From Sphagnum compactum (Eukaryota): a DNA stretch of 64,000 bases. The notes beneath the pieces are model-generated. The model ran no database searches, was not told the origin of the DNA, and saw only the letters and a list, made by a program, of their open reading frames with translations. Shown here piece after piece: positions 36,298 to 64,000 of this stretch (position 1 is the stretch's first letter; the number at the start of each line of letters is the position of its first letter). The DNA is taken from assembly GCA_965153455.1 (NCBI GenBank), contig OZ234493.1, forward strand, positions 12,266,213 through 12,330,212, read 5' to 3'. The translations under genes were made by a program, and so were the position numbers.

Positions 36298-38546
<2,249 letters not shown>

Positions 38547-39545: not shown

Positions 39546-41017
39546 TATGATGATGACCTCCGTTTCTGCAAATCTGCCTGATATTATTCAGTAAGAAAGA
39601 ATTCTTCTCTATCAGAATTTTGTGGGCACAACACAAGAGTAACAACAAAGTTCGGTGGAGCCACAGACGGGAAATAGAGAGGAAGAGTGTAATTTGGACT
39701 CCCCTGCAAACAAGGAAGATCAAGACCAAGCTCTCTTTAGTCCTGGTATAATACCTTACAAGTACACCTGCTTTTTTTTGGTACTGTCTGTCATAGGGAC
39801 CGAATGTGAGGGACAACAAAGCGAGCAATATCTGCTGCTCACGACTACTAATCCACAAGCTCCTCATTTCCAACTGAAGAGATTATGTGTCGTCATTATG
39901 AAAACATAAAATTTCGAACAATCAAGATGTTCTGAGTGAAGCAAACATCATCAGCTAAACAGTGTCAAATTTCACTGTAGCAACTGGGAACTCTGACCCA
40001 ACTCATTACACTAAGGCAGATCTCAATTCAGTTGAGCACTCGAGGATAATATCATATATAATGCACGTGTTGAAATTAGAACTGATCAAACAGTTATCAG
40101 ATGATTTCAATAAACAAGATCTCTCTATTCTGAAATGAACCTTTGTTCATCAATGCTTAAATCCTCACGGTAAGAGGTCTATACATGCTCCAGCCCTCCT
40201 AAAATCATGCTTGCTCAATTGATGGTATTCTGTGAGCTACTTGCATTTGCAAACGGAATGATCCAAATGCTCATTCAGTATAACATTAGTCCTCTTCCAA
40301 CTATGTATATGCCTGGAAGGCAACCAAGTATATGAATGCAGCCTGTGCCAGAATAGATCTCTAAATCCATAAAGTTCATCACAGCCCTGTTTCTATTGAG
40401 TTTCAGCTCTGAAGTGTCCTGACAATGTTGTAAAAGAAATTCCATCAATACTGCTCAACGTTGTTGCCTCCAGCCTATGTGTCGCAGCCATGTTGCTGTT
40501 GTCTTCCCACCACCCTAGGCACCACAAATGGTGCCACAGAGTTATCCTACCTCATTACTTCATAGATTACAAGTCTTGGATCTTTGGAAAGATTTCTTTT
40601 ATGGCTACAGCACTCTTGCTGTATCTGATCAGCACCCACCAATCAGCACCAAATATCAAGTAAACATAAGTCCCTCTTACATTGTGCACAAAACCCTGCT
40701 CGTTCAGCACTTGTCATTCATGAACCTCTGTAATGGAATTATCCTTATTGCTTATCAAGCACTTCAGGCAGTCATGATGAACATCACCACTTCCCCCAAC
40801 TGCAACAGGTACCTAGACATTGAAAAAAATACCAGTTAGCAACAACATAACCACATCATAGCAGTCACATAGTGGCACAAGCACATCTTGTTATCCTCCA
40901 CTGGCTCTTCAACCAATGTCTCTGATATCCCATAAGCCCCAGCTTCAAGAAAACCCTCAAGCTCAGATGACCTTTCAGCTCAGCTCAGCTCAGCTCACAC
41001 ACCATGCGCTTTCCTTC

Positions 41018-41030
41018 TCACACAACACAC

Positions 41031-41060
<30 letters not shown>
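41018..41060. repeat. (CA)n microsatellite, probably in the captured RHM promoter/5' leader
   Basis: Interrupted CA run next to (GCTCA)n at 40974-40997. Confidence 0.8.
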
Positions 41061-41062
<2 letters not shown>

Positions 41063-41451
41063 TGCTAATCAACCCCATTCGCTAATCATTTGTGATTAGT
41101 AGCCTAATTAGGACCTTAATCAGGGCCTTAATTATTCTCTCTCTTGCTAAAGAGAGATTTGTGTTAAGCAAATAATACTGTAGTAAGATATTAATTTTTT
41201 ACCACTGGGTGCAACCTGTCTACATTCAGAATCCAAAGGCGGTTAGCACATAAAGAGGATCTCCAAAGGATCTGCAATATCTCCAGGAAGCCCATACCAT
41301 CAGAACGACTCATAAATATGTTTCAGCTCTAAACATGGGAGCAGATCCTGTAGTGAGTGCCTACAAAGTCAGCTCAAGGACACTTACCTGTGTGCCTGTA
41401 GCTCTTGAAATACGTGTGGCAAGAGCTGCCAGATCCCCATAAGACAACTAT

Positions 41452-44400
41452 TCATTCAAGGCCAACTTCATCCTCACCAGATGACCTTTGAAGCTCTTCG
41501 GCAGCTAGAATTGCATCAGCTCCGGTCAATTCAATTGCACCAACAAGTGCCATGTTCCTTGGTACCTCTGGAAATTCCAGAGGCACATCTACTCCAATTA
41601 AGTTGTCTACCATGGTAACTTCATCACTATCAGATACTAGGATGCGTTTGGACCTTGGTTCTTTGTGGAGGACAACCTTCCATCCTGGCATGTTAGGGTC
41701 ATCTGCATAAAAAACCTACTGCACCTGGGCTGGAAATACATAAGGTTCATCAACCCGTGCTTTCAATTGTCGAAAATTTACCAACAAAAACCCATCATCA
41801 TCACGCTTATATGTGGGATTCCCCCATCTGTCTAATCCATTTCTTACCCAATCACATTTGAACAATATTACTGGTTGGGATATAGGGCCATAGTCTAGCA
41901 AAATTATGTCCTTCAATATCCCCACATATTGAAGCGCCCCAAGTCTTGTACCCTCTGTTGACTGCTGCTCTTGATGGAAAACTGATGCAACTCCAAAATC
42001 GTATGTGGCACTTGTGTTGTCAGTGGTATTTATAGAAACTCTGTAATGATTTCCATATGCTTTCATTCTTGTGTACCTTGAAGCAAAAGGGGATGGCAAA
42101 ACTGATAGATGGAGTGCATCTTGGTCTTCAAGCACGCCCCCTTGTGCGATATGGCTCCGAATTGCTTCACGAACCCAACTTGCCAAGTTTTGCACCTCTT
42201 GGAGCTCTGGTGGAAACTCCACATGCCTGCTTCTTGTTCTATGCCCCATCCGCCATTGTGCTTCAAATTCTGCTCTTAACTGCCTTATCCGAATTGTTTC
42301 TTGCTCATACATGCTGCACCCCCAATAGCCAAGCCCCACATTAAGTTTATTAATTTTAGTTAGTTGTTCAACAAGAAAGTAACTTACCCATGCATCTATG
42401 ACCTCTTTACAATTTTCCAACATGGGTTTAAGGGGTTAAGGGTTGTGTACCAAACCCACGGTGCTAAACATGCCACATTTGTGATCACATATTGATGTGC
42501 CACATCTCGTGTTACAGGGTCCAGAGTCAACTTTGTGGCAGCCCCTTCCACAACTTCACCATAAACCCCCTCCTCTTCATCTGCATCCTAGATTCTATGT
42601 CGAACATGGCGGAAATCTTGTAGATATTCGGTGACAAACCCAATTGTCTCATCCAAAATGTAACCTTCTGCCATGGAAGCCTCTAGCCTTGACCTATTAC
42701 GAACATAACCTTTGAAAACCTTCATGGCCCGTTCTATTGGGTACATCCAGCGAGTATGAACTGGGCCACAAATGTCTAGTTCTTCTACAATGTGCAATGT
42801 TAAATGTGACATCACATCAAAAAATGCTCCCGGGAATTCCCATTCAAGCATGCTAAGAGTGATTGCTACATCTTCCCTTAGGTTTGTAGGTCAATTGGAT
42901 CCCAAACCTTTGCACATATGTTACAATACACTCGACTAAGGCACATCAAACTTAAACGTACATGAGCATCCATTAGGCCCCTTAGAGCTAGAGGCATTAA
43001 TTGTTGCATTAAAACATGCCAATCATGGCTCTTCATTAACCCAAGTTTCTTATCCATGATATGTTTTCCTAATGAGCCGCAATAATTTGTTGGCACTTTC
43101 AAAGAGGCTAACCTATTCATGAAAGTTTGGAGCTCTTCTGGTCTAAGGACATAGGGGGCAACAGGTTTAAAAATCTTGCCCGGCCTTTGAGGATCCCGTT
43201 TCAACCATAGATGTTCTCGGATTCCACACACTTCCATGTCCCGTCGAACCTTGATTGTGTCCTTCAATCCAAATATGAACTTGATCATACTCTCACAAAC
43301 ATTCTTCTCAATGTGCATCACATCTAACGTGTGCCTGATGAGTAAATGCTGCAGCAACCACCATTTCGGTTAAACAATGGTAATATTTACACAATTTGTG
43401 CCTGGGAACTACTATACCAAGATGTAAACACCCATATAATGATGCCACCCAATAATTGAAATCTCACAAATTGACAAATTTTAACAGGGACCAAAAATAT
43501 GTTTGCCCACCCCAGGACTCCGCACTTATCTCTGATTCCAGAAATGAACCACTTGATGCCTCAGTTGTCCCAGTAAACAGTCCCTTTGATACAGCGTCTT
43601 TTGAAACCTTTGATGATGAAGAAGATGAAGAACAACTAATCGCACTTGAAGACAAGATCTGGGTGGACTTAGAGGATGAGGCTGATGATCTCCTAGACAT
43701 GGAGTTAGAGGATGAGAGCCAAAAGACTGAATCTGCTTTGGAAGACATAAAAGTTTGTGATGATCCCCCAATGCTGCAAAGCACACTTCATGACCAAAGA
43801 GTTTTAAGTACTGAACTGGATAATGACCAGATGACACAGCATAGTCCAGTGGATGTAGATATGGCTGCCGGACATGCTTCAGAGGACCATGCAACAAAAC
43901 AAAAATGTGTCCAGTGAGAAAAACCAATCAAGGGAGACTATGGATATGACCGAAGATGATGCAGGCATTTATGTCATAGCAACAATAGCCAAGACCAGTA
44001 AGAACATCTCAGAAGGATCTCATAAAGAGGGTGAGAAAGGTAATGATGAAGTAAAAGGAATTCTGGAGCTTGAATTGAAGGTGAGACAGATGGAGCGTGA
44101 ACTGAAAGAGAAAGATGCAAATTTTACACATTTTGCTATCATGATGAGATGCATCTTTTAATGTTGTTGAAACCAGCTGGATCAAAAATCCATGGTATCA
44201 TCCAGTGTTGAACAATTGGACACTGACAATTCCAAACAGAACAGTGGTGTTACAGTGAGTCTAGACAAAGGGCTCTCAGAAGAGTCACCATGGATTTCAG
44301 TCTGGTCATAATGGCAGTGATAAGGGTCCATAATACAAGCTGTCCTTCACTCAATATGAATGTTGTTGCACATTCAATGTAGTGGTAGTCAATTCTGCAC

Positions 44401-47400
44401 GTTACCTTGCATCTTCAGACAAAGTCCTACTTGAGTAAACTACGCAGGATGGCATCCTGCCTGAATTCATACATAATTTTTCTACATCCTTACCCACCTC
44501 AACTCCTGGAATAGAGAGGTTTGTCAAGCAACTGAGAAAATAACTTCTATTTGCATATGCAGCAGTGCATCATGACCACCAGTTGCTTGCATGTAGCAAA
44601 GGGCATGTGCAATATGCATAGATATAGCAAAACCAAACTGTAATATCCCAGAATGATTTTGGAGAGGTACAGTAATGGTGTATACAAGGAACCATATTTC
44701 CCAATTTCCAGCAACATAGGGACTAACCTATTATGCTTCACAACACATCAAGGTTCTGAGATGATTAGTGTACTGATGGAGTCACAAAGTCTCAGAGGTT
44801 GACTCCATCCCTAGGAGGTTGAGAACCCAAGTTTAATTGCTTCATCTTCTTTGTTAACTATCTAGAGGGCCGGTCACCCATGGACAAGACCAGCAGATGC
44901 TCTGCAGCTGTGCCACCAGTATGGCCCACACCATTTCAACCTCACCTGGACTCCAGGGCCCTCAAGGAGCACAATTTTCTTCTATGGACTTCTATGCACA
45001 AGTTGTTTGCTTGAAGTTACCATGACCAATTCGTCATTTCTTGAAAAAAGAACAGAATCCTTGGAGCAAAAAGGAGGAGAAAAATTTGTGAAGAACACGA
45101 TACATTTTTGGGCTTCTTTGGCAACCCCTAATTTGGGTCTTCCATCATCAATCCTGATAAGAAAAGGCCTTCTTGAGTCACAAACAATGATACAGTTGGA
45201 ATGAAATGAATCGTGGAAGAATGGACTGATGAGTGAAAGTGGTACTAATAAGGGAGTTCTCATAAGAGTGAGGAATACCAGATTGTGACTCATCAATAAG
45301 TCCACACTCCAAAAATACTCAGTGATTCATGTAGTACATTGAATTCCAGAAAATTACATGAACCAACCAGGTGTCTGAATTGGTCACTTTATGTTCCAGA
45401 TATTCACATGAAGATGAATAAGAAGGTACTTCTTGGATAGCCAAGTGCAAAAGTAAACTGAATCTAAAGGGCAGTGGACTGATTGAAGAGTCCCTAAGCA
45501 GAGTAGTTTAATATACAACGAGCAACTGCATTGAAAGGTAACACTGTATTGAAAATGAGGGGGTTGTGACATAGATGAGCCAAATGAGGGAGGAAGCACA
45601 GGAAAGAAAAAGGGTCTGAAAGCTTGAATCGGAAAACAAAAAGTGTGAAACCAATGATCACCTGGGTGGACTTAGAGGATGAGGCTGATGATCTCCTATA
45701 CATGGAGTTAGAGGATGAGAGCCAAAAGACTGAATCTGCTTTGGAAGACACAAAAGTCTGTGATGATCCCCCAATGCTGCAAAGCACACTTCATGACCAA
45801 AGAGTTTTAAGTACTGAACTGGATAATGACCAGATGACACAGCATAGTCCAGTGGATGTAGATATGGCTGCCGGACATGCTTCAGAGGACCATGCAACAA
45901 AACAAAAATGTGTCCAATGAGAAAAACCAATCAAGGCAGACTATGGATACGACTGAAGATGATGCAGGCATTTATGTCACAGCAACACCAGCCAAGACCA
46001 GTAAGAACATCTCAGAAGGATCTCATAAAGAGGGTGAGAAAGGTAATGATGAAGTAAATAGAATTCTGGAGCTTGAGTTGAGGGTGAGACAGATGGAGCG
46101 TGAACTGAAAGAGAAAGATGCAAAGCTACGACAAGAAGCTGCAGTTGAGCAAGAGAGAATTGAGATGCTTGAAAAGAGGGTTCTTGGAAAGTTCAAGGCC
46201 ATTGATGCTGGAACGAGAGCAGCGAAGACAAAATCTGAGGGAGGAAGCACATGAAAGAAAAAGGGTCTGAAAGCTATGAATCGGTTGACAAAAAATGTGA
46301 AACCAATGATCACCCTTGGATCAGCAAACATGTCAAAACTCAACAGGCCTAAACATGTAACACAATTGAGGTGGGTGGGCTGAATAATTCATGCTCACCT
46401 CCCAATATGGCAGACCCCAGAATGCACATAAACGCTTCATCCCACTGCTTCTCGATGGACACCCTTTTGCCCCCAACACATTTCCTGCAGCCACCCACTT
46501 TTCAGTGGCGTGGGCTTGTCTTTTCGCCTCAGCAGCTGTTATTAGATCTGGCCTTCCCCTTAACTCCTCATGACCATTAAAATGTTGGGCAATGGGATGA
46601 ATTCTGTATGGGTGATTTTGATTCAGCCACCTTCGATTTCCTTCAAACACTACCTTTCCCAACTCCTTTGACCATCGACTAGTTGTCCCTGATCCACATG
46701 GAGGGCATGCTTTGTAACCCTGATGTTGGCATCCAGAAACTAAGCCATACTCGGGAAAATCATGAATCGTCCACATCAATATGGCCCTCATTAAAAATTG
46801 CCTTCTACCTATAGGTTGTAGTATGTCAAGCCCTCTAACCCCCTCCCATAATTCTTGGAGTTCTTCAATTAGAGGACTTATTAGGACATCAAAGTTTGCA
46901 CTCTTAACACTCTCAGGCCCTGGAATTATGATAGATAAGAGCATGAAGAACTTCTTTGTGACTAGCCATGGTGGGAGGTTATAGATAGGAGTAATACTGG
47001 CCAAGTGGACCAAGCATTTTTTTTGTCCCCAAAGGGTTCACCCCATCGGTGGCCAAACCTAGTCTTACATTTCTAGGTTCAATTGCAAAATCAGGCCATG
47101 TATTATCAATGTGTTGCCATGCTTTGCTGTCAGGCACATGGCGAACTTTCCCATCTGTGCTCTTGTTTCTAGCATGCCATGTCATCATCTCTGATGTCTG
47201 TCGAGCTCGGTACATACGTAGCAACCGAGGAATTAAGGGGAAGTGCCGCAGAACTTTTTGTGGAACAAGAGACGTGCCAAATTTCTTGTACCGAGTAGCC
47301 CCGCACTTTGGACAAGCCTCCAATGTAGAATACTGCTTCCGAAATAAAATGCAACCATTCACACATGCATGGATGTGCTTGTAGTCTAGGCCTACTTTCC

Positions 47401-48205
47401 TAGTAAGGCTCTTAGCTGCATACATGCTAGGTGGTAGAAGGTTATCCTTTGGCAGTAGGTGCTTATGAAGGAGTGCTAATAACTCATCCATGAACTTGTT
47501 GGATACGCCATGCACTGTGCAAACATTCATCAACAGTAATGTTGATGCTAGCTTCGTGCACCTTGCACCATTGTACAAAGGCTGACATGCTTCCCGTAGA
47601 CAATTGGCCTCAGTTGAGATGTCATCATCACTTGCTACTAATGGGGGCCCTGTTTCACCTAGTCCCATGTCATTGTCCACACCCCCCTGTCCCCTATCAT
47701 GGTTATTTTGGTCGGGCATGCTTTCAGGCAATGCTGCTAACTCTTCCATGATCTTGATGGCATTCTGCACCATGCCTGTTACCTCCATTCCCTCTACATT
47801 ATGGTCTGAAGACAAGTTTGTAACCCTCTCACCCTCATGTTTTTCCTCTGGCATTTGGAATAGGTCATCCAAAAGTTGGTTCACATTCACAGCCTCATCC
47901 ACTACCTGCACCTCCACCTCTATTCCCATTGGGTTTACTACTGCCCTGCTTGCTTCAACCCACTCTTCATCAGAGTGGTCAGTTGGGCCTGGGCCTTTCC
48001 ACACTCTAAATAGTGGATGCCTCCCATTTAGGATTAGGTGGTTTCTAACTGTCCTAAGTAAAACCATTCTGCCCATTCCTTCACATTTGGCGCATGGACA
48101 CCGCATCTTGTCCACCCCATGTTGTGTGGCCCATGTGAGCTCCCGCTTCCACAACTTGTCATCCCTTGCTTTTTGCCTTCTTGGGTCATCCAAAGGCATT
48201 GACAT
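41452..48205 (-). pseudogene. CACTA TnpD/Tnp2-like transposase (transposase-associated, Transposase_21, DUF4218, DUF4216 regions), decayed
   Basis: MRCPCAKC..HLILNG, IHACVNGCILF..CPKCG..RY, LRHFPLIPRL, EPRNVRLGLATDGVNP, YNLPPWL, WTIHDFPEYG, LPYWE|HLLIRHTLDVMHIEKNVC, KSHDWH, GPVHTRWMYPIER, LFKCDW, DEPYVFPAQ. Intron 46398-43349 and a short one at about 42450-42313; frameshifts at about 47031, 46989 and 42879; stops at 42588 and 41716. Confidence 0.93.
43659..46124 (+). repeat. 463-bp dispersed direct duplication (43659-44121 and 45662-46124) inside the transposase intron
   Basis: Near-identical copies at a constant offset of 2003, encoding WVDLEDEADDLL..ELKEKDA; a second block of about 80 bp (45581-45662) matches 46230-46314. 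Confidence 0.92.
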
Positions 48206-48939
48206 TATGTCTTCCCTCAAATAATGATGGAATGACAAGAAATCTTGACCAGAACTCCTTCACAGTAAGTGGCAAAATTGGACAACATCACACTGTTATG
48301 AAACCAGGAAATGATAACTTGCACTCAGATATCCAATCAGGTAAATCCTAATTGCAAGCTTTCAGATAAAATCTTCAAACTGCTAGAGTCTTGACAATGA
48401 AATGTATGAATGTGGTTCCATGGACAATCTCCACCAAATCGTGCAACGTAACAAAACAAATGTTGTGTCTTTTCCAGCCTGTGAGTACCATAATCATCAT
48501 CATCCTCTTCACTGTGAATGGCAATGGGTACAATTAAATAGATGATAATATGCTCACACCTCGTGCAAAATTTCGGAAAAGCAGATCAAAGATACATACT
48601 CAAGTGATCAAGAGCTGAAGGAGGCATGACCCCTGAAATGCAACCACAGCCACCAATCACCAAATAGAACATTGAAAACACATCCATTAGCTCCCTCTGT
48701 CACAAAGTGGAGATCAATTCCAGACAAAAATCTTTCCTTCCATTGACCTCAATTCATCACAAAAGTCTTATACAACTGTGCATCTCTTACCTTTATCTCC
48801 ATTTTCAACATGTGGCTGTCACCTACATTCCAAGGACAGGTTTTGCATGTGAAATGGCTTTCAAGAGGGGTTCCTCATGTTGTGCTAGTTGATACGTTGG
48901 TCTTGCAAGTCTTGCATCTCTTAGAGGTCATCTGATCTA

Positions 48940-50029
48940 TGATGATACATCCGAGGCAGCTGAGGAATTAGATAGATCCAACAATGTGTCCGATGGAAAA
49001 TTTGATATGGCAGAAGATGAGAGAGTTGCTGAAGCAGTCATGGGAGAAGTCAATCTCCGTAAGCAGGAAGAGGACATAGCTGGTGAATCGGCTGCTGCTG
49101 CTGCCCACATGTCCCCTCTTTTTGAAACTAGACCTGCTCCAACTCTACAGCATAAGCTTGCATTTCCTGCAGAAGAGCCAAAGTTGGAAGAGATTGAAGG
49201 ACAAGGGTTACATCTGAATTGTCTTGATGAACTTTGTACATCTCTTGAAGCTGAAAATTGTGATACAGTTATGTCAGTGGGAACACTGGACATCTCTGAG
49301 GGGCTCCTCCCTGAGAGGAATCTGGAGATGCCAGGGGATGACAGAACTAAAACTGAGGTAAATTAGAAGGAGCAGAGACCTTGTGAGGAACAAACTATGG
49401 TCTTTGCAGTTGACACCAATCACCCAGTTGCTTCAAAGCAGATGCTAGACAATGCAGGGGATTACCCAGTGGAAACTTCTGAGAAACAAGAAGATGAGAG
49501 CTCTGGAGACACATCTGCTGAGGTGTCCCTGAATTTCAATCCAAGTCATGCTCCAACTATGCAGGAGAATTTTGTGGTCCCTGCAAAGGAGTTGGTGACA
49601 GTTGATGGTGTGGGTGAATATGTGCATCTTAATGTTCCAATTCTTCCTTTCTCTGTTGCCTCAGATAACGAGGTAGAGTAGTTGGATTATGAGAACTATC
49701 CAGTATCTCGAAATGGAACCTGTAATGCTACAGAACAGCTAGAAGAACTAGCTAAGACAGAAGGATCACAAGGGGTCAATGATTTGGATGAAGAAAAAAC
49801 CAGATTACCTACTGGCGAAGGTACCCACTTGAACTCTTGTATGAAGACATTACATGCTCCAAGCATGCAAGAGAGTTGTGCATATCAGGCAATGAAGATA
49901 GCTTCAAAGAAAGATTCAGGTGAATCAGTGGATTTGCAGTCCAGCCACACTCTATTGGGTACCTCACCTGCTGCAACTGGAGACAATGAAGAGGAGACAA
50001 CAAGTGGGGAATTGATATTTCCAAACTAG
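48940..50029 (+). pseudogene. Decayed 1.1-kb acidic, low-complexity reading frame (unidentified captured fragment)
   Basis: ORFs 48986-49366, 49397-49681 and 49682-50029 share one frame, separated only by TAG stops. Confidence 0.6.
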
Positions 50030-50339
50030 ATGTAAAGAACACGCTAGGGTGAAATCAGATACAGTTTAGGGTTCATGAATGACCTTGTCTATGAATGAGG
50101 CTGAGTAGCATCAGTAGTTCTGCTCAAATGGTGCCGAGGGGTACAACATTCCACACTCGTAATAAAACTTCACATCAAGTAGCCAACGAAGGCATACAAA
50201 GTTAGAAATCTTGTGCAAGCAATCTTCTACATATTCTTTTGTCCCCATACAAACAAATGCCTAACACCTACTTGTTATATGTTGGTGATCGATATGATGT
50301 TTTAGGTCTAGATAGCACGAGGGGCAGGACAAGCAACTT

Positions 50340-52062
50340 GGGTGCCAAGACAAGGTGGCCTTGGGCATCACAAAGGGAGGCAGCGGAGGAGTCGGTGAGC
50401 AGCAACAGAGGAGGAGGCTCATACGACTCCGACAACCTCTCTCTGTTTGTGAGCGATCTCTCCGACATTTGCAAGGAATTGGTAGGGTCTTCAGAAGAAC
50501 ATACGTCTTTCGCTGTTGCAATTCTGTTCGATGAAGAGATTGGCGTTTTCAGTATTCTGGAATGCATCATGCGAATCCGCGACAAGAGTGTTGCAAAAGC
50601 CCGTGAAGACTGTTTGAAATTCGTTGAAGCTTTTGTCAAGCAAATTGGAGGACGTGCTCTTCCCCATGTAGCATTTCTGAAGGTGAGTGAGTGAATGAAA
50701 TGCGTTTCTTCTTCTTCTTTTGCTTTTTTTTGTTTTTGTGTTTTAGGGTGTAGGGTTCTGAAAACGAAGAATTCTTGGTGCTTTTGTTTATTAACAGTGT
50801 GGCTGATGGGTGGGTGGGTGGCTGTCTGTCTCTGTCTAATATGCCTTCTTGCTCACGAGGAACATTGTTTAAGAATTTTCCGGAGAGATGATGTCAAAGG
50901 TGTCCAAGCAGCAGCATTGAAGCCCCTTACTGTGCTGCTGGAATGGAACATTTTGCACTCGAAGCAGCCTCCCAACTTCTCGGTGGATTGGGGACTTACC
51001 AATGTGCTGATTGTTGAGTTTCGGCAAGCAAAATCACATGGAACATGTGCTTGAAAACAGTTCTCACCCTTTTTTCCTGTTTTCAAGATCTATGTACACA
51101 TGATGTTGATGATGTAGGTTCCCATCAGTCCTCTTGCTATGGTGAATCAATCAATGAATTCGTTAAAATCAGATCTATTCTTGTATTCCTTGTGGTGAGT
51201 TTTTCTCATCATCATCAAAGGTAACGTCTGCTGCTTTTTCAGCCTCTTCATTGTAGTAACTTCATCAGTATCTTCTTCTTCTTCTTCTTCTTCCTCCTCC
51301 TCCTTCTCCTCATTTTCCTCCTCTTTTATGTCTTCCTCTTTGTGTAAAGTGATTGTGCTCCATTTTGGAAGAAGAAGGTGGAGAACATAAGACAACACCC
51401 TGATGATTCCTTTATAATTTGCCATTGTTATGATGAGCTGAGCCCAATTTCAATACCTGGAAGAAAGTGGGTGGTTTTTCTTAAACCCTTTTGTGTGCAT
51501 GTGGTGGTGGGGGGGGATCTTGTAGTGAGATCGCACATTATTGTGCTGCTTAGGTACTTGGTTGAGAGTTTCAAGACTGCATTCAGTGAGGACCAGGTGA
51601 ACCAACTCTTGCAGCTTTATATGAACACACTGGAAGCACAGTTACAACAACCCTCGCACACACTCCTGGTAGGAGCAATGAAGTGTCTTGACTCGCTGCT
51701 CACTTGGTTTGTGAGCAGCGAGTCAAGACATTTCATTGCTCCTGCTAGGAGCGTGTTGGTTTGATGATGAACTTCCTGCAGGAGGTAACAATATGTGCAA
51801 TTGGTAATTGGTGGTTTTATTTTCTTTTGGGGGGACATGGGGGGACATGTTCACAATTTTCCCTTGTGCATAGGGTGTTGGGGTTGTCCTGTTGGGAAGC
51901 TGTCTCTTCATTTGGACCATGCACAGATAGATGGATATCTGAGAAGAAATGGTGGGCTTCAACAACTTGCAGGTTCTGTAGTGAATTCACGGAGGTGCTT
52001 TGAATATATTGAGCAAGTATTATGGCCTCGTGAAGACCTAAAGAGATACGAGGTGTTGAGAG
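50340..52062 (+). pseudogene. PRKDC: N-terminal fragment of DNA-dependent protein kinase catalytic subunit (4 exons with introns)
   Basis: Exons about 50340-50682, 50860-51046, 51526-51784, 51973-52062: LFDEEIGVF..AREDCLKFVEAFVKQIG..HVAFLKEHCLRIFRRD..AALKPL..LLVGAMKCLDSLL..SRRCFEYIEQVLWPREDLKRYEV. This follows the order of the DNA-PKcs N-terminus as I recall it (CREEILKFL..LAGCLKGLSSLL..SREIFNFV..IDLKRYAV). The 5' start is uncertain. Confidence 0.8.
51658..51756. repeat. 46-bp-arm fold-back (hairpin) within DNA-PKcs exon 3
   Basis: 51658-51703 pairs with 51711-51756 around a 7-nt loop TTGGTTT; 42 Watson-Crick pairs, 3 G:U and 1 mismatch on the + strand. Confidence 0.95.
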
Positions 52063-53381
52063 GTATATCCTTGCACACTATTCGAATTTCCCGCTACACG
52101 ATTTCCCTTTTGGAGTTGCATGCAAGAGAAGTTGTAGAGATTTTTCTCATCTTTTAAGTAACTGCAAATTTGGACTCTCAAGCTGTGTGGATTTTAAGTT
52201 ATGTAGCTCTTCTCCTTAGATTGTTTGGTCTTCTTCTGTTTCAGGTTTTGTTGAGCTTTGCTTTCTTCTTGGGTTTTTGGTTTTCCCCTTCTCTTTTAGG
52301 TTTTGTTTAGCCATGCAGCACGATGGCTGAGTTAGTCCATTACTGCCAAACGTTTCTTCTGATAGAATGTTAGTACACTGGCTAACGTTTGACCTTAACC
52401 TCCACCTATTACTAAGAGTTGATGAAGGCAATGGGGATGTTCTGGTAGGTGTTCAATTCCATACATGTTGCTATTGAAGGTACTTGAACATGCATATGAA
52501 CAGCCATTGTTGTTCAAACTGCTCCTCAGTTTTGGTTTTGGTCTTGTTTTTCTCATTTCTTAGGCTTGGTGTTCTTCGTTCATGCCGCTATTGGTTGCTG
52601 TCATGTTATCAAATTTGAAAATTTGAAATGTCGACAGCTAAATTTCAGTGGATTTTCTTCATTTGCCATCTTTAGAATTAAGCACGAAATTTAGTACTGA
52701 ATTGGTAGCACTCTTGGTTTGAGGCAACAATCAGCCATTCTAATTGACTACTGTTTATGAAAATTGGAGAGCTTTTGACTTAGTTAAATGCATTGCAATA
52801 CTTTGAGAGCCCCTTCAAATATTGTGAATCCATGCTGAACAATCTAATCAACCTTTTTTTTGCCTCCCTGGTCCTGAAATGCAGTTGCAAAGAAGGAAGG
52901 GTATTCATGAAGCTGAGCAGGTTTGGCTCAGGCTACTTTTTTTGGCTGCACACGCTACCCTACCTGTTCTAAACCTTCCTTCAACAAGGCACAAGCAATA
53001 TCTGTTTTAACAAAGAGAAATAGGCATGCTTTCAGCTGAAAGTTGAAAGTTTATTATACCTTGATATTGGGTGATAGCTGGGAAAAGTAGAGGTTTGTGT
53101 TTCTACAAAGTTTATTTTCCTTGACAATTGTTGGTTGCTGCTTTGAGGTAATGTCCCTTGCTTTATAGAATTGTTGTGGAGTAGTTTGGCAAGGCTTGAG
53201 AAGGGCCTGAGGTCTGACCCAGCTGCCAGACTAGTGTGTGGCTATGTTTTCTGTTTTGCTGGTCCCATGAAGCCTGCAGCAAACCTAAGACTCCTACTGT
53301 GTTCCATCCACTATTTGAAGTTGATGTTGCACCTAAGTGCTTGTTCTGTAGTATTTAATAGATATTTCTGGTGGATTGCAG

Positions 53382-53706
53382 GTAATGGTGCCCTATATGT
53401 ACGAATAGTTCATCAGCAACTTGACATATGAGGTCAAAAGCGGGAACATCCCAGTGTCACGGAGTGATGATGTTGTTGCCAGAATTCTTCTGGTCAAATT
53501 TGAAACAGGTCTCTTTGAGGACCCTTATGCCAACAAGGGGCTTAAATCATTTATTGGCCAGCAAGTAATCACCTGCCCTCATGATTCATGAATTCAAGGA
53601 ATTGCAATAGTTTGTACTTATGCCCAACATTGGTCCACAATTGCTTAACCTTATCGTTGGAGTATGCAGAAGCACATAGATCATTAGCCCGTGAAGTAGT
53701 TAGAAG
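53382..53706 (+). pseudogene. Internal fragment of a glycoside hydrolase family 3 beta-glucosidase (one exon, an intron and part of the next exon)
   Basis: 53382-53564: [49 protein letters not shown]; after an intron, AHRSLAREVVR. Matches the plant GH3 consensus IPMSRIDDAV.RILRVKF..GLFE.P..EHR.LAREAVRKS. Confidence 0.85.
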
Positions 53707-54130
53707 CAATAGCCTCTCTCATATAACCAAACAATCTCCAAGCTTACGGAAGCTACCATGGTGGAGAAAGGCAGAGAAAGAGATGGGAATAAGGATTTGG
53801 GAAAGTTTGCTATACCAAGAGACTTCAGTGGAACATATTGTGAAGCAGATCTTCTAAACAAATTTCAGAACAAAGTCAAAGGACATCTTCTGCTTTGCCA
53901 TAGACCAACTCACAAGACTTCTCTCTTGCTTTCTCTCTGATGAGTAATTCAAGCTTGCTGTGAAAATGTCATTCACATAGTGTCTGTCAACCTGTACATA
54001 GAAGCTCCTTTTTGTGCAATCAATATTGCTCTTCATTGAGGACCATACAATCAAAATTTGAGTTGACACAAAGGCTGAACTGCTAATGCAATTCTTTGTG
54101 CAACAAGATGCCATAATGTAGCAAAGAAGG

Positions 54131-54252
54131 ATGTGACCATTAGGAGCTCAGATATTGAAAACTACAAACAAGAAAATGTGACCACCAGGAGCTCATGTAC
54201 TGAAAACTGCAAACAAGAAAATGTGACCATCAGGAGCTCATGTATTGAAAAC
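54131..54252. repeat. 45-bp tandem repeat (about 2.7 copies)
   Basis: ATGTGACCA..AGGAGCTCA..TA.TGAAAAC..CAAACAAGAAA starting at 54131, 54176 and 54221. Confidence 0.88.
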
Positions 54253-54932
54253 AGTATGTAGAGCTGAGTAAACCGGAACATCACATGCACATATCATGAT
54301 GAAGTGTTATGCGCATATGCACTTTCTTGTAGAAACTTTCAAAGGATTGCATTTGAAGATGTGCAGGTGCAAGAGTATAATGCAGGGAAACAAAATTTGA
54401 AAGGGAAGATGAAAGAAACTTTCACCATGGGTGGGTGGCTAATACTACTCTTTGAAATCATCCTTGTCATTTGCCGGAACCGGTCTGTTTCTCCAATTTA
54501 TTTGCCAAGTATTGATTTTTGAACTAGCTCTAAACTCACACATTTCATATACTGATGAACTACAAACTGCTACAAACTGCATGAACTTTACAGACTAAAA
54601 AATCAGAAGTATCAGCCTAATGTGCAAAACATGCTCCTTGTTAGGCTCTTATTCACACCCTTGTAAAGAAATAAAATTGGTTACAACTATCTAAAAGGTA
54701 CCCCATAATAAATGAGGGTTTGTACTACACTGGGGAATTTGCAGCTACTAAATGCTTGTGTGTGGGCTCAACATGTTCAAGTTCAAACTGCAAAGGTTGT
54801 CAGGCTTTCCCTAAAAACCAACTTTTCTAGACTTGGAAGAGTAGAAGCATTGGGGAGGCTTGTGGCATACCATAACAATTAGCATTTCTAAGGCAAGACC
54901 AACATAAGGCTAGTTGTTTGAGTAAGGTACAG

Positions 54933-57900
54933 ATGGAGCGTGACGAAAATGCAGTCATCAGTGATGCTGATGGTACAATGGGTCACGATTCAGGAACGGT
55001 GGATGCTGATCCCGAAGAAACAACGCTAAACCCCTACATTTTAGCACGTAACAGGCGTGTTGCTCAACTCAAACAACGACTTGCAGAAGTTGAAGGAAGC
55101 GCACAAGAATTGTGAGTTCTTCTTAGACTTGTCTTCACATGCATAAATGGAGAGGACCATACAGAATTCAGTAATGGATCGTGCAATCTCCATTGCCTGC
55201 ACTGTATGAAAGAGTTTGGAAGTCCGACTATGTGCGTGAGTTTTGTGTATACGCAAATAGTTTGAACACGCTTCAATAATCTTTGTTCTAGTGTTAGGTT
55301 GTAGCTACTCTCCAAATTCCAATCTATTCTAAACTTTTCATGGGGTTAGGGTTTAGGGTTTGAAATCGATGTGTTCGGTGCTACCATGAAATAGGGTTCT
55401 TGGTGATCATTTACTACATGCATAGCTTAAAATTAGGTTTGTATGCTAGTTAGTGGTCATGTGCTTATTGAGACATTCTTAGTCCAAACTAATTACTCCT
55501 TTGCTGTATTTTGGAAACACTCGGTCACTTGGCAGTCGTCACTTCATGGACTCAGCAACCATGCAAGGGAGGAAGAAGACAAATAAGAAGTCCACCCAAA
55601 AGGTGGTGGATGGGAGAACACTTGGACACCAAAGCAAGAAGAGGAGCACTAGGAATGCTGGAAAACCACATCGTCATGTGGTGGAAGAGGAAGGGTCGTC
55701 GACATCAGCAGCATCTAGTGAACGCGACACTTCATGTAGCAGTGACTACAACTCAAAAGCAGAGGAGTCAGAAGGTTTTGAGCTGCCAGTTGCATCTTCA
55801 GTTATGAAGGAACAGAATAAGGCACCTAGCAAACGGACCCCCACACCAAATGTAATGTACCCCTCCCCCCCCCCATCAAATATTGTTTCTGAGGTCCATT
55901 TTGATGTCAAAGATACTAAAAGTAACAACATTATTGAAGGCACAATATCTGTGAAATTTCTGACTGGTCCTATATGAGCCTTGCTAGTCCGTATTGAGTT
56001 GAAGTTTATTCTAGCAAATGAAACTAAAGCAGAATAAAAACATGTAGGCAAGATCTACAACTTCACAGACAAACAAATTCTGGTAAAATGTTAACAAACA
56101 TTAAAAAGACTCCCCCCCACAGGCTTTGTGACTCAGCCTGACTCTGTGCCCCGAGCTCCCTCCCTCTATGTCTGATGTGTGTTTTTTTCTGCAATCTGGT
56201 ACTATGTGATTTTGTGTCTTTTGTTGCAATTTTGGTGTCTGATTTTGGTAGCCTGGTATGTGATTTTATTTTTTCTGGTGTGCAATTTTGTGTTTTCCTG
56301 CAGTCTGGTGTGTGTGATTTTGTGTTTTTTGATGCAATCTCATGTGTGAATGATTATTTTTTCCAACAATCCAATCATCCAAACGTCATGTTTTTGCTAC
56401 AGTAGTGTATTGTTTCCTTACAGATTCCTTAAAGATTTTCAGAGATCTTTTTTCTGGTTTATTTTTGATAGATGGATTGTTTTGCTAGTGATCTGATCAA
56501 CCACTCTCTTCCTTATCATCTGTGGACTTGGTGCACACCTGTTTTGCATTCACCATCTAGTTTGATATAACACAAACAGAGACAAACAGAACTTTCTTCT
56601 CTTCTTTCTCTTCTGACATCATATCTAAATTGAATGCTGCATTTTATCCCCCTCCAAGATTCCTCAAGAAGCAGTGACATTGGTCTTGACTGTAGATGTA
56701 TTATTGTCAAGATTGTGTTCCAACTGCACAAGCCACACTGTAAAGAGATGTGATGCTCTGTGGGCTTTTGTGCCTCAAGAATGTGAAGAAGTATAATTAA
56801 TGATCCTAGAATTGTCTCCCTGATGAGTTTGCAAATCACTTTTTTCTTTAGGGATTGCGTGCTTGTCTTACGGTCCAAATGCCCCGTTTGTTACAGGAGA
56901 ACTGATATGTGCTTACTGGCTCTTAAACTGCACATTAGAGATAGCCACTTGTAGAACATCTAGTATTGTCTTGTGGGTTTACATGTTACAGCACATAAGC
57001 TCCATAAATTTGGAAATGGAAACATAAAATGGGGCCCAGTTAAAAAGGTAATTGCCAATACTCATTTGTCTGTCTTCAACATTAAGTCTCTCAACTATGA
57101 TAGAAGGCTTAGGCAATAACACCTTAATTCTTCAACTAGCCTCTGTCCGTTTTCAGATAAGGGGGTAATTTATGTTATTTACAGTGTCAATCATAGTAGA
57201 ATGCTGAGTTTTCTCCTTTTGTTCTCGGTCTTGATGTTGGCCATGTATTAAGTGAGTGGAAGGCCAAAGTTCTTTTGTTTGTACAGAAGAGGACTCATGA
57301 TTCCTTACTGGTTCAAACCTCTTCTGATTCTTCTTTGTACAGAGGTTGAGGTTGCTGGTATTAAACATGGTGTAGAAAGGGATGGAGAACTCACAAGCCA
57401 ATGATGGATCCAGTAGGTCTGCATTGGACCACTTCCGTATTCCAGACACATGGGTCTGTGGTGTTGTAGGGGTCTCGGTAGTACACTTTTTCTTGATTTC
57501 CTTTATCAAGATTGGAGATTTTTGCTTGAGCTTGTAATAGTTTCTTTAAATTCAGAGCTTGCAAAGTCTATCACTATTCTTGGAAATTATTGCCTTTATC
57601 CAGAGTGTCTTCAAGCTTTCAGTTAAGATCTAGAATTGTGCCCTTTTTGTTCATCAGAGTTTTTCTTTTGTATCAGGTTTTCTTTCATGTCCAGAAATAC
57701 TCTTATAAATCTCCATGATTTCAGTAATGCAAATATGAAGTGGTTTTCTTTCAGAAATTTGCTGATCATGTTGTGTTCTGTAAAGGGTTAATTAAAGTCT
57801 CTCAACAGGCTTAGAACGTTAAGGCAAAAGCACCTCAAACTTGTTGCCAAAATTTGTTCTGTTTCATATAGAGGTGTCATCTATGTAATCTGTAACACTG

Positions 57901-60900
57901 GTTCCAGTTAAGTGCTATATGATGGTCAAACCTGTAGCTCAGTCTTTGCAAGATCCTAAGAGCATGTAAGAGAAGCTCGAACATTGGAAAAGCTCACCAA
58001 TTCTGTTTTTGATTTAAAACTCTTCGTATGTGCCTAAGTCAAAGAAGTTTGTTGTTCATTTGGTATCTTTGCTAATGAAAAAATTATGGGAGATTTATGG
58101 ATTCAAATGGGAAAATTGAACGTCAAAGGTTCAATCTTGCTGCCACAATAATAGGAGGAAATGGATGGCTGTCCTTCATTCTGCATTTTCTAGATCGTAT
58201 GACTTAGAAAGAAGGTTGTGTAGCCAAGTTTGTAAAACCAGTCCTATGTTATGGAGAAAAGGTCTAGAGAAGGTCCTAAACTTTCTGTTGTGCATCCCAA
58301 AAAGTTCGAAAGTCCAAAGTCAATCCCTTGCTGTTGGTTGGGTTTAGGGAATTTTCTCTTCGTGTGCCCTTCTTCTATAGAAAGATCCTATCTGTCATGA
58401 TTCATCACTGGATTACCTTAGTGATCCATATGTTCTTTCCATAGAACTTTTGGCTGGATACAAAAGAAAATTGGATTTCCTCTATAAAGTTATACCTCAT
58501 GGGAAGGTGTTTTCTGAATTTCTTACCAAAAACTTTGTTGGTTGTCTTCAATGTCATCAGTCTTTATGTGCATGCCTTTTATATGTAGCCCTATTTGTGT
58601 GATTAGGGTTGTTCATGATTGATAAGTTTGCCATACGAATCTCTGTTTTTTTGGAATTTACATGTCTCATGTTGACAATATATGAGCAGACTGTATGTTT
58701 TCCTAGCTTCTACCCATTCCCTATGTATAACTTGTTGTGTGTGTGCTTGAGAAAAGAAAGCAACATCAAAGAAAGCTCGGGTTGAAACCCCACCACTTGT
58801 CGATATGGTGAATGCCACTAGGCTACAAAAGACCACATCGGCAGCAGTACAAAGTCGCAAGCATGGTGGTGACTTTGCAAGGTGCAATAATCAGGCATGT
58901 AAACATGGTGTTGGAAGTTCAGAATGCACATGGAATGCTGGACAATGTGGGCACACAAGACAGTGGAGTTCTTGCCAAGTGTCACAATGTCCTAATTCGA
59001 AGGTAAGATTGAGCCCTGGGCACAAGGGACTTACAAACTGTTGTGCCACTTGTGGAAGGGCTCCAAGCAACATGTATGAATCAACATGGGGTGAAGGAGG
59101 GGGTGTGTGTGATCAGGGGCTATGTCAAAGGGTGCAACCACATTCACCCATGGGCAGGCAAGCACCAGACATGGCCTTGGACAATGAAATAGAAGTAGAT
59201 GCCCAGCCCAAGGTTTTCGCTGAAAGGGGTATGCAACGACGGGCTTCAAAGCGAGCTATAGAATTTGAAGCCCAAGAACGAAAGGAGAAAAGCTTGCTAG
59301 GCCATAAGGTGCAAGTGACAAGGCATGGCAAAATTGATGGTGCATGTGAAGGGAAGGATGCATGGGATGGTGCGATTAGGTCGCTAGCACCTCGGATTTT
59401 GAACATGGCAGTGGTTAGGGTTACAGAACAGGACCCTGTAGACATGGCTAGACTCCGGTTGCAATTGGATGGGAGATTTGAATATGTAGGTGGTGAATTA
59501 AGTGGGGCTGGCTTTAGGGATTGTGTAAGGCGATATATGAAAGGAGAAAGAGCACGCTTAAAAAGAAGGTATGCACAGAAAGGTGCCAAAGCCTGCCCAC
59601 TTGAAGTGGACCGAGAACAATGGGAGAAATTAGTGACATATTGGCAACAACGTGAGACCAAGAATAAAAGTGAACACATGGTTGGTGCAAGAGGGGCAGT
59701 TGCAAATGTAAGCCACCTTGGGCGTGGTGGTAAGGCAGCTATAGAAGCAAAATTGGCAAGTTAACCCTAAAACCCTACTCCGTTGTGATGGCCAAATGGA
59801 AATTACAATATGTTGAAGTTATTATGCACTCACATGCCACATACAATGCTAAGCACTGAATGATGTCTGAAATGGGTGAATGCAGAAATCCAGGCATCGC
59901 CGAAGCCCATCAATATCTGAGATGGCTGCTGTGGGACTAGAATCTAGTGGCACACCTGGGTACCCAGTGAGTTTTCCTAGCTGTTTCATTTGTCTTTCCC
60001 TATCCTTTCCCTTTCTGTCTTGGTTATGGTTGATTGAGGGGATGTGATTAGCACTGGTATTGCATGGCCTACCTCAACCAGAAAGTCTGCTAAAACAGTA
60101 CCATCATCAGTAGAAGCTGGTGTAGCCTTTCCAAACAGCTTACCAAGTGACATCCCCTCACTGCTTTTACTAGTATCTGTCTTGGAAATGATATCATCAG
60201 GTACTGTGTCACCTGTGGCATAATGACCCTGTGGATTCAAGCTCCATAAGTCTGTTGTTTCATGCAATTGCTTCACACTTAAGCTTCCAGTGGTGGATGA
60301 AGTATCATGTACTGCCTCATTCACAATTTTAAGTATTTCAACATTGGTTTCCTTAGCAGTATCTCTTGAATCAAAATCATCTGCTCCAGTATTCCAGATC
60401 CTTCATTCTGTGTTTTCCTGATATCTCTTAATTCTCCTGTTGGTGCATATGTGGTCTCCAATCTTGCCCAATATGGTATTCTGAATTTTGTTTTTCTTTT
60501 GTTTCTTGTCTTCCCTTGTTTGGTTCTTTTTGTGGCTTCCTGAGGAAGTGTTAGCCTTGCTGTTTCTTCTTCATCGTGAGATTGGAAATTTCTCTATTCT
60601 CATGCTTTTGGAATTGCGATTTAATTTGGTTTAGTTGCATTCTTTTGAGTGTTCTCCTTATACAAAGGTTTAACATATCGGATCTGAATGTTAGAGAGAA
60701 ATTTATAACAAATATTGGTTTTGGTAGGTTGTTTTTAAGTCCCATTATTTCAATACTTTCTGTCAATTCAGTGGAACAACCATTCACCTTGGATATATTT
60801 GGTTGAAATAGTAAGGATAAGTTGAGTTCTGTGTTGTCAATGTAGCAGAAACTTCAGATTTTATCTTCTTGGCTAGATTTCCTCGTAGATAACTTGTTCC

Positions 60901-63405: not shown

Positions 63406-63820
63406 GTTAGGGGCACTATAGGTCGGGAGCTAGTTGATTTTTGAATTATAAAACTGACATATTTTGAGTAGTTATGGCCTTTTTTGGGTGTCAATGATAT
63501 TTTAGACATTGTCAGGTTTAATAGACCTGATAGAGTGATGGATTCCTGGTTGCTGTAATTGGAACAATGGCCATTAAACCCCATTGGATGGAATTTCAAT
63601 GTTATGACAAAGGGTAATTTGTTGGTTAAGTAACTGCAGATTTGTTACATGCAAAATTGCAAATCACAAATCTATGTGTGTAATATTTATTGGTTGATTT
63701 TTCAGCACTAGAGGAATATAATAGAGACCTGATATGTATAATGTACATTAGTAAACTAGGTGTAGGTGTGCTCCTAATGCTAATGTGGCAATGCTTAATG
63801 CTACTAATCCTGATACATCA

Positions 63821-63913: not shown

Positions 63914-63920
63914 ACATAGG

Positions 63921-63981: not shown

Positions 63982-64000
63982 AAATCTAACGGTTGTTGTG

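What the first reader, a model, noticed from the sequence alone, without database searches (positions are those of the whole stretch)
51658..51763. Template-switch fold-back turns a DNA-PKcs exon into a near-perfect hairpin (proto-miRNA candidate)
Seen: 46-bp arms and a 7-nt loop; three of four differences are G:U on the sense strand and all four are transitions. The 52-nt insertion is bracketed by a repeated TTGGTTTG (51704-51711, 51756-51763); removing it restores LLTWFDDELPAG and the splice phase into the next exon. Known: inverted duplication of target sequence is an established route to new plant MIRNA/siRNA loci. Inference: the antisense arm could yield small RNAs against host DNA-PKcs mRNA.
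Basis: partly seen in the sequence, partly recalled or inferred. Interest (0 to 1): 0.75.

Follow-up and report, generated by a model that had tools for sequence, protein, structure and literature searches.

The report
Transposon-borne hairpin from DNA-PKcs exon
A moss jumping gene picked up the front end of a DNA-repair gene, one exon of that piece was copied back onto itself into a hairpin, and the jumping gene then spread it through the genome; the hairpin decays like the DNA around it, and no sign was found that it makes regulatory small RNAs.

Summary
The hairpin is real: 46-bp arms, 7-nt loop, 8-nt direct repeat. It lies not in the DNA-PKcs gene but in a 1.8-kb, promoterless 5' fragment captured by a 29.7-kb CACTA transposon. 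25 genomic copies carry it; the single-copy parent lacks it. A relative's metagenome holds one element copy with and one without it, so it is no assembly artefact and probably arose inside the element. The G:U argument fails: stem deaminations across the 25 copies match the flanks (15 seen, 16.5 expected; C>T 9, G>A 6). The hairpin is a rearrangement hotspot instead (loop flips, replacement, deletions). Spliced element transcripts exist in one RNA data set, but no RNA covers the antisense arm, and no small-RNA library was available. Best reading: a fold-back mutation riding passively in a silenced Pack-CACTA, at most a source of mixed siRNAs. Functional trans-regulation of DNA-PKcs: about 10%. 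The scan noted similar fold-backs in other genomes, never this sequence.

The parts
35406..35408 (+). 3-bp target-site duplication TTA (repeated after the right end, which lies 1089 bases beyond the window)
   Evidence: 13 of 14 copies checked match the TIR pattern with identical 3-bp flanks, the 14th (L027, one change in the TIR) shows ATA on both sides by eye
35409..64000 (.). CACTA (En/Spm) element, 29,681 bp, left TIR CACTGCTAGAAATT (CACTA in sister copies); runs 1089 bases past the window end
   Evidence: three other copies colinear end to end and a fourth over the part fetched, at about 98%
36300..38050 (-). captured ubiquitin-conjugating-enzyme gene fragment (limits approximate, read by eye)
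   Evidence: UQ_con 2.3e-14 on ORF 37536-37811
38769..39587 (-). captured nucleotide-sugar dehydratase fragment (RHM-like, label recalled)
   Evidence: GDP_Man_Dehyd 9.9e-45
41716..48259 (-). broken Tnp2/TnpD transposase gene (frameshifted pieces)
   Evidence: Transposase_21 1.8e-13 and 6.4e-40, DUF4218 5.1e-32, DUF4216 2.5e-5; pieces differ among the 5 copies examined
50369..52200 (+). captured DNA-PKcs 5' fragment: exons 1-4 with introns, starting about codon 11, without promoter or ATG
   Evidence: 91.7% over 1854 columns to G000:C5:5136863-5138662; parent identified by Pfam and PDB
51526..51784 (+). captured exon 3, frameshifted by the insertion (stops follow at once)
51658..51703 (+). left (sense, parental) arm; holds a 15-bp palindrome with a 1-nt centre near its base
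51704..51710 (+). 7-nt loop (first copy of the direct repeat, 51704-51711); flipped in L027 and L030
51711..51756 (+). right (antisense, new) arm = reverse copy of the left arm
51756..51763 (+). second copy of TTGGTTTG (re-copied loop at the return junction)
51973..52062 (+). captured exon 4; spliced in RNA to element-resident exons at 52885 and 53382
   Evidence: joints 52062-52886 (side 57, depth 18) and 52060-53380 (side 25); GT..AG checked
58751..59764 (+). TnpA-like ORF
   Evidence: Transposase_24 E 0.002, below the curated cut-off
63961..64000 (+). start of the about 105-bp subterminal tandem array (continues to about 795 bases beyond the window)

Best explanation
Four steps. (1, shown) A CACTA transposon captured the first 1.8 kb of the coding region of the moss's single DNA-PKcs gene, without promoter or start codon. 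(2, structure shown, mechanism inferred) Later, most likely inside the element, DNA synthesis stopped after the loop, the new strand folded back on one G:C pair, copied 46 nt of itself, and rejoined the template 7-8 nt behind the point of departure. That one event made the inverted repeat and the short direct repeat. (3, shown) A founder with the hairpin was amplified to 25 copies in this genome. (4, shown for sequence, inferred for function) The copies became methylated and silent. The stem decays at the same CG/CHG-biased rate as its flanks and also attracts further strand switches and deletions. When a copy is transcribed through exon 3, the stem would be a Dicer substrate giving imprecise siRNAs. 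These would act mainly on the element family; any effect on the parent would be incidental and not under selection.
For: 25 full-length hits with the insert and one locus without it, the parent; parent is full-length, single-copy DNA-PKcs. TIRs, 3-bp TSDs and Tnp2 domains. Element copy L053 lacks the hairpin yet shares 25 derived changes with hairpin-bearing copies; 5 of 5 parent-type loci lack it. Stem: 18 substitutions in 1806 sites (1.0%) against 262 in 30197 (0.87%) in flanks; deaminations 15 seen, 16.5 expected; flank C>T/G>A rates CG 3.2%, CHG 3.9%, CHH 0.65%. 4 of 8 type-A copies have a perfect stem; 0.40-0.45 expected without selection. 6-7 structural events in the 99-nt hairpin against 0.7-1.4 expected from 2482 flanking nt (P of 5 or more = 0.013 at the most generous background). 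Loop inversions after a hairpin-making switch are described in PMC10710096. The parent shows no excess decay in the captured part (23/1774 against 29/2586).
Against: Timing is not proven: L053, L055 and the 25 copies form an unresolved trichotomy (1, 1 and 0 sites; the free tree needs 2 changes, one clade of hairpin copies is not rejected, p-AU 0.196), so L053 may have lost the hairpin by deletion between the 8-nt repeats. The element is not fully silent: exon 4 is spliced to element exons in one RNA data set. The neutrality tests have little power (18 stem substitutions) and would miss selection on one or two copies. Sequence cannot tell a replication switch from break-repair synthesis. No methylation or small-RNA data were seen.
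Confidence: 0.7

Rival explanations
1. The hairpin is a working proto-miRNA or hairpin-siRNA locus: one or more intact copies are transcribed, diced, and the antisense arm cleaves or methylates the parent DNA-PKcs message or gene in trans.
For: Geometry passes the structural criteria. Best copies match the parent with 0-1 mismatches per 21 nt. Sense-strand spliced element transcripts leave exon 4, just downstream. In Physcomitrium, inverted repeats give 21-nt RNAs along a continuum up to miRNAs (PMC2600652, passages). Captured fragments cross-talk with donor genes in maize (10.1101/777037, abstract).
Against: No stem conservation and no G:U bias; 17 of 25 copies with a broken inner stem; zero RNA depth on 51732-51858 in 3 of 3 RNA runs laid, two of them one data set and all probably from relatives; no mutational footprint of methylation in the parent; no promoter captured.
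Confidence: 0.1
2. Origin by repair of a double-strand break rather than at a replication fork: a staggered break at the loop, snap-back synthesis from one end, then end joining with fill-in, which duplicates the 7-8-nt overhang. A variant is the footprint of an excised element with an 8-bp target duplication (hAT-type size, recalled).
For: Explains the inverted and the direct repeat in one event; 1-nt junction microhomologies. Yeast breaks give templated fold-back inversions, mostly 5-34 bp, joined with 0-5 bp microhomology (PMC11724301, abstract and section 15). The derived inner-arm replacement matches 10 nt at 51353, the only 10-nt match in the element, which hints at templated repair here (post hoc).
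Against: No inserted element at this site in any of the 25 copies, the relative's 2 informative element copies or the 5 parent-type loci. A hairpin-opening footprint should leave a palindrome without spacer and needs an extra deletion (recalled). Template switches also give combined inverted and direct repeats (PMC10710096).
Confidence: 0.15
3. The fold-back is older than the split of the sampled element lineages (at or soon after capture, or in a lost parent allele), and the hairpin-less element copy L053 arose by precise deletion between the 8-nt repeats.
For: The free tree places L053 inside hairpin-bearing lineages (85/78, one site, 51656). The stem is deletion-prone (L029, L031).
Against: Needs two events instead of one; one clade of hairpin copies is not rejected; none of 25 copies in this genome shows the precise loss. 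A parent allele with this frameshift would be null.
Confidence: 0.04
4. Assembly or read artefact.
For: Fold-back chimeras occur in sequencing libraries (recalled).
Against: 25 dispersed copies with heritable variants, an independent metagenome contig and a short-read contig across both junctions (span inferred from the from_end values).
Confidence: 0.01

Closest known systems
Pack-CACTA / Tgm-Express1-type elements (PMC6379663, PMC1947982; abstracts seen)
   Same: CACTA termini, 3-bp TSD, several unrelated host gene fragments with introns, captured exons spliced into chimeric transcripts.
   Different: This element is about 30 kb and still carries its own (broken) transposase genes; one captured exon carries a fold-back, which neither abstract mentions.
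Template-switch mutation (TSM) hairpins and TSM-born miRNAs (PMC10710096; first sixth of the text and passages seen)
   Same: One-step inverted repeat, combined with a direct repeat; later loop inversions of the new hairpin.
   Different: There: mammalian loci with annotated miRNAs. Here: a plant, inside a mobile element, 25 replicate copies, template is a coding exon with a living parent, no small RNA shown.
MIRNA birth by inverted duplication of the target gene (Allen model, as summarised in 10.1101/2024.07.25.605110 and 10.1101/2024.05.03.592357; passages seen), e.g. Aha-miR217
   Same: Near-perfect hairpin with one arm antisense to a coding exon of the founder gene; expected first product is imprecise siRNA.
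   Different: The duplication that separates hairpin from parent was done by a transposon and the inversion is local and short (46 bp); no parent promoter; multi-copy and methylation-type decay; no processing data.
siRNA cross-talk between gene-capturing TEs and donor genes (10.1101/777037, abstract; PMC13317346, passages)
   Same: TE-borne exon fragments homologous to a functional donor gene.
   Different: There the siRNAs come from ordinary TE silencing; here a built-in stem could supply dsRNA directly. No footprint on the donor was found.
Fold-back templated inversions at double-strand breaks (PMC11724301; abstract and section 15 seen)
   Same: Short local inverted duplication with minimal microhomology at the return junction.
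   Different: The yeast cases start from a 10-bp imperfect inverted repeat; here only 1 nt (or a bulged 4-nt match, read by eye) is present, and a 7-8-nt direct repeat is added.

Membership tests
CACTA/En-Spm superfamily | TIRs beginning CACTA (recalled definition) | tested here: met
   12 of 14 copies begin CACTACTAG and end CTAGTAGTG or a one-base variant; the window has CACTG, L027 CATTA
CACTA/En-Spm superfamily | 3-bp target-site duplication (recalled definition) | tested here: met
   13 of 14 by pattern, the 14th by eye
CACTA/En-Spm superfamily | Tnp2 transposase and TnpA-like gene, subterminal repeats | tested here: met
   Transposase_21, DUF4218 above cut-off; Transposase_24 below cut-off; tandem array at the right end. 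No intact transposase frame seen in 5 of 5 copies examined (one lacks its left 5.8 kb in the stretch fetched)
Pack-type (gene-capturing) element | Host gene fragments, with introns, between the TIRs, with an identifiable donor | tested here: met
   DNA-PKcs donor at C5; donors of the UBC and dehydratase fragments not sought
Template-switch mutation | Insert explained as a reverse-complement copy of adjacent sequence, absent from the ancestral state | tested here: met
Template-switch mutation | Arose at a replication fork rather than in break repair | not testable with these tools
   same product either way
Plant MIRNA (criteria as tabulated in PMC12594335) | Hairpin 50-300 nt; duplex with at most 5 mismatches and no asymmetric bulge over 3 nt | tested here: met
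   99 nt, one non-pair in 46 bp in this copy
Plant MIRNA | One 20-24-nt miRNA/miRNA* duplex with 2-nt 3' overhangs, at least 10 reads, at least 75% precision | not testable with these tools
   none of the 22 runs offered is on record as a small-RNA library
Plant MIRNA | Precursor is transcribed (implied requirement) | tested here: inconclusive
   spliced element RNA downstream of exon 3, but no RNA on the right arm in 3 of 3 RNA runs
Plant MIRNA | Duplex region more conserved than flanks (reported for MIRNA in 10.1101/2024.05.03.592357; not a formal criterion) | tested here: not met
   stem rate equals flank rate
Known Rfam miRNA family | Score at the family's gathering threshold | tested here: not met
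   best mir-2300 47 bits against 90; 0 of 11 matches reach threshold
DNA-PKcs (parent gene) | N-terminal, CC1-2, CC3, CC5, kinase and FATC domains in order | tested here: met
   (FAT only weak); kinase exon best matches DNA-PKcs 3.6e-83 against mTOR 7.3e-43. The hairpin exon alone scores only E 0.049 and is assigned by position in the gene.

The most novel reading that the evidence does not exclude
A transposon-carried small-RNA gene aimed at the host's end-joining kinase: capture of a DNA-PKcs exon, one-step fold-back inside the element, then spread by transposition gave a mobile family of hairpins whose small RNAs dampen DNA-PKcs while the element is active, changing how its excision breaks are repaired. 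This would be a 'capture, fold back, transpose' route to a multi-copy MIRNA family, with parent, pre-hairpin element and 25 replicate descendants all still readable.
Probability: 0.08. Interest if true: 0.82.

Novelty: new variant of a known kind. Interest (0 to 1): 0.4.

Why it matters
Each ingredient is known (gene-capturing CACTA elements, template-switch hairpins, MIRNA birth by inverted duplication). The combination gives an unusually complete natural series in a plant: parent gene, element copy without the hairpin, perfect hairpin, and 25 replicates showing what happens next. The series says that such a hairpin can persist and multiply without selection, and that its G:U pairs are plain cytosine deamination, a caution for reading 'proto-miRNA' from one copy. 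It also makes one step of the inverted-duplication model directly testable, because hairpin-specific reads can be told from parent reads. If small RNAs against DNA-PKcs were found, a transposon targeting a host break-repair gene would be a strong result.

Tried and rejected
Assembly artefact: rejected. G:U bias as a sign of selection on the sense-strand fold: rejected. My own early argument that an A shared by both arms against G in the parent dates the fold-back after capture: withdrawn, because relatives' parent genes have the A. Rfam: only shape matches below threshold. Pfam on the window's captured exons: 0 of 4 matched; identity rests on the parent. C4:6180654, found only with the downstream query, lacks the hairpin because 35878-51921 is deleted; it is no pre-hairpin copy. 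Footprint of cross-talk methylation in the parent: none, low power. The L027+L030 clade in the first tree came from the two independent loop flips and vanished when the hairpin was masked. RNA contig 50277-50683 is element-type but shows no intron itself, and the exon 1-2 joint may come from parent or element, so neither is counted as proof of element transcription. The 0 of 3000 control for the 10-nt template match uses overlapping windows (about 25 independent), so the match is a lead only. Literature: searches listed no paper on a fold-back inside a TE-captured exon; most listings were seen only as titles and abstract openings, subscription papers are largely missing, and I opened no supplements (progenitor lists of the A. 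halleri preprints could hold such cases). One search did not list a paper on the Antirrhinum niv-525 allele, so that precedent is recalled only.

Full report
1. The observation. The four differences are transitions, three of them G:U on the + strand; TTGGTTTG stands at 51704-51711 and 51756-51763; without the 52 nt the frame reads LLTWFDDELPAG. Both strands fold far better than shuffles (z -13.2 and -11.3). Rfam gives only shape matches, 0 of 11 at threshold.

2. It is one of 25 copies. A search of the own genome with 51520-51790 scored 26 candidates: 25 loci with the insert, on 13 contigs, and one without, at C5:5138023. That locus is a full DNA-PKcs gene of about 20 kb with N-terminal, CC1-2, CC3, CC5, kinase and FATC domains; its kinase exon matches DNA-PKcs best (3.6e-83 against 7.3e-43 for mTOR), and a downstream exon is single-copy (1 of 1). 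DNA-PKcs is reported in mosses and absent from angiosperms (PMC10419180, passages). Run labels point to a moss; earlier notes on this genome call it peat-moss-like (unchecked). The window holds only 50369-52200 of the gene: exons 1-4 with introns, from about codon 11, no promoter.

3. The carrier is a CACTA element. Other copies are colinear with the window from 35410 to 1089 bases beyond its end, at about 98%: 29,681 bp. Of 14 copies checked, 13 show the TIR pattern with identical 3-bp flanks, and the 14th does by eye. The element holds broken Tnp2 genes, a weak TnpA-like ORF, and fragments of a ubiquitin-conjugating enzyme and a nucleotide-sugar dehydratase. End searches give 25 left and 27 right ends at 96% or more among 40 scored each, so nearly the whole subfamily carries the hairpin. 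One copy lost it in a 16-kb deletion. This is a gene-capturing CACTA like Pack-CACTA and Tgm-Express1 (abstracts).

4. When the hairpin arose. L053, L055 and this genome's copies share 25 derived changes against the parents; this genome's copies share 6 more. The simplest order is capture, divergence, fold-back inside the element, amplification. The three lineages are unresolved (1, 1 and 0 sites; p-AU 0.196 for one hairpin clade; the free tree needs 2 changes), so precise loss in L053 remains possible. Parent genes group apart from all element copies (100/96; midpoint root), so capture seems older than the split of the sampled relatives. Copies here differ by 1.6-1.8% on average. The relatives' parents show that my first dating argument, an A on both arms against G in this parent, was wrong.

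5. How it arose. The insert is an exact reverse copy of the preceding 46 nt; each junction has one ambiguous base, and the return lies 7-8 nt behind the departure (sequence). Template switching gives such combinations of inverted and direct repeats, and later inverts the loop (PMC10710096, first of 6 parts and passages). Break repair in yeast also gives short fold-back inversions (PMC11724301, abstract and section 15). Sequence cannot separate the two. An excision footprint with an 8-bp duplication (recalled) needs an extra deletion and has no positive evidence.

6. What happened next. Of 25 copies, 7 keep the original form, 1 has the loop flipped (L027), 16 have six inner bases of the right arm replaced by seven others, and 1 of that lineage has the 26-nt inner segment flipped plus one compensatory pair (L030); L029 and L031 lost 6 and 13 nt of the right arm, L007 one base. 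The original form goes with ancestral states elsewhere, so the broken form is derived. That is 6-7 structural events in 99 nt (flip and compensation in L030 may be one switch) against 0.7-1.4 expected from 18-34 events in 2482 flanking nt; P(5 or more) = 0.013 at the higher background. Point changes show no constraint. In the outer 37 bp of the stem there are 18 substitutions in 1806 sites against 262 in 30197 in the flanks (left out: inner segment 51695-51719, three clade-defining columns, simple repeats; shared changes counted per copy). Deaminations are 15 against 16.5 expected, C>T:G>A is 9:6 (p=0.61), and the flank spectrum is CG 3.2%, CHG 3.9%, CHH 0.65%, the signature of methylated DNA. 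Three G:U of four has P=0.31. L055's three arm changes are all non-G:U on +. Four of 8 original-type copies are perfect, 0.40-0.45 being the neutral expectation. The window's copy is among the more decayed ones of the original type: 1-3 mismatches to the parent per 21-nt window, against 0-1 for L002 and L027.

7. Expression. Of 22 runs offered, none is on record as a small-RNA library; I laid 4. X18 (library unknown, even coverage like DNA) shows the hairpin-less form (skip of 52, depth 25; parent or an L053-type copy) and a contig across the right arm with L055's variants. X1 and X3 give near-identical tables and count as one data set. They show a spliced parent-type exon 3-4 junction, and GT..AG joints from captured exon 4 to element exons at 52885 (side 57, depth 18) and 53382 (side 25), so some copy of the element is transcribed on the + strand in that moss. 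No RNA lies on 51732-51858 in X1, X3 or X22 (169 reads laid from about 12% of the run, mostly 90-99% alike, so from other alleles or relatives). This negative is weak: contigs drop rare and self-complementary stretches, and those plants may carry few hairpin copies. The parent shows no extra decay in its captured part (23/1774 against 29/2586).

8. Mechanism, committed. Most likely (0.7) the hairpin is a passenger: made once by fold-back synthesis in a captured exon, multiplied with the element, silenced with it, and eroded by deamination and further strand switches. If read through, it would yield imprecise siRNAs, as near-perfect young hairpins are said to (10.1101/2024.05.03.592357, passages) and as inverted repeats do in Physcomitrium (PMC2600652, passages); maize hairpin-like regions in TEs map more small RNAs (PMC10760457, abstract). 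Shown: capture, structure, amplification, neutral decay, element transcription downstream. Inferred: order of events, fold-back chemistry, silencing, any small RNA. A selected trans-regulator of DNA-PKcs gets about 0.1.

9. Relation to what is known. Member of CACTA and of gene-capturing elements: tested and met. Template-switch-type hairpin: met on structure. MIRNA: structural criteria met, expression criteria untestable, conservation not met (criteria from PMC12594335, passages); it should not be filed as a MIRNA. Inverted duplication of coding exons is a known but rare source of young MIRNA (two cases among 310 in A. halleri; 10.1101/2024.07.25.605110, passages). TE-captured fragments and pseudogenes are known small-RNA sources against donors (abstracts; review passages). 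Five searches listed no report of a fold-back inside a captured exon that was then amplified; coverage is limited and no supplements were opened. The scan's own notes hold similar fold-backs in other genomes and other gene-carrying elements in this one, but nothing near this place or like this sequence.

10. Verdict. A real and well-documented mutation series, a new combination of known processes, without evidence of function. Interest 0.4; 0.82 if small RNAs against DNA-PKcs were shown (probability about 0.08).

Noticed in passing
window 51353-51362 and L010 inner right arm: The seven bases that replace the inner right arm in 17 copies, with the bases before them, match 10 nt in captured intron 2, 360 bp upstream, the only 10-nt match in the element; that site is itself a small quasi-palindrome. 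Possible templated repair.
   Followed up: partly
window 51662-51676 (left arm base): A 15-bp palindrome with a 1-nt centre pre-exists in the parent exon; its centre is switched G to C in 12 copies, and L031 has a 13-nt deletion of its right-arm copy.
   Followed up: partly
window 38769-39587 (-): Dehydratase (RHM-like) fragment keeps a 272-aa open frame in 5 of 5 copies examined, while the transposase is broken differently in each; may simply reflect young age.
   Followed up: no
window 36300-38050 (-): Captured ubiquitin-conjugating enzyme exons, with a duplicated stretch at 37358-37585; donor not sought.
   Followed up: no
window 50084-50144: Small piece of a well-expressed host transcript (X22 depth 51, loose ends on both sides, opposite strand): another captured fragment just upstream of the DNA-PKcs piece.
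   Followed up: no
window 52885-52965: Short element exon that receives the splice from DNA-PKcs exon 4; X22 reads have loose ends on both sides, so it too seems captured from a host transcript.
   Followed up: partly
window 50143-50681: Deleted in 16 of the 17 copies with the broken inner stem, removing captured exon 1; the 17th (L010), L003 and L008 lost it by other deletions.
   Followed up: partly
window 43659-44121 and 45662-46124: 463-bp direct repeat (97%) inside the transposase gene region; two C14 copies lack 45662-46236.
   Followed up: no
window 53181-53183: Three adjacent substitutions shared by 14 copies, the only such cluster outside the hairpin in 2.6 kb.
   Followed up: no
window 54131-54265: Three tandem copies of a 45-bp unit.
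   Followed up: no
window 63820-64000 and L032 1-795: Subterminal array of about 105-bp units with a palindromic core and telomere-like AACCCTA runs; copy number differs among elements.
   Followed up: no
L053 (window equivalent 51786) and L053/L055 at window 50277: The hairpin-less element copy has a mutated exon-3 donor; both relative's copies carry about 110 bp at 50277 that the window lacks.
   Followed up: partly
G000:C14:5880367, C10:5316, C9:991008: Element ends at 98% identity with no DNA-PKcs hit nearby: truncated or internally deleted family members.
   Followed up: no
run X18 on window 51320-52346: Long unbranched element contigs at depth 57-68 against 25 for the hairpin-less junction hint at few element copies in that sample, unlike 25 here; depth is no copy number.
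   Followed up: no
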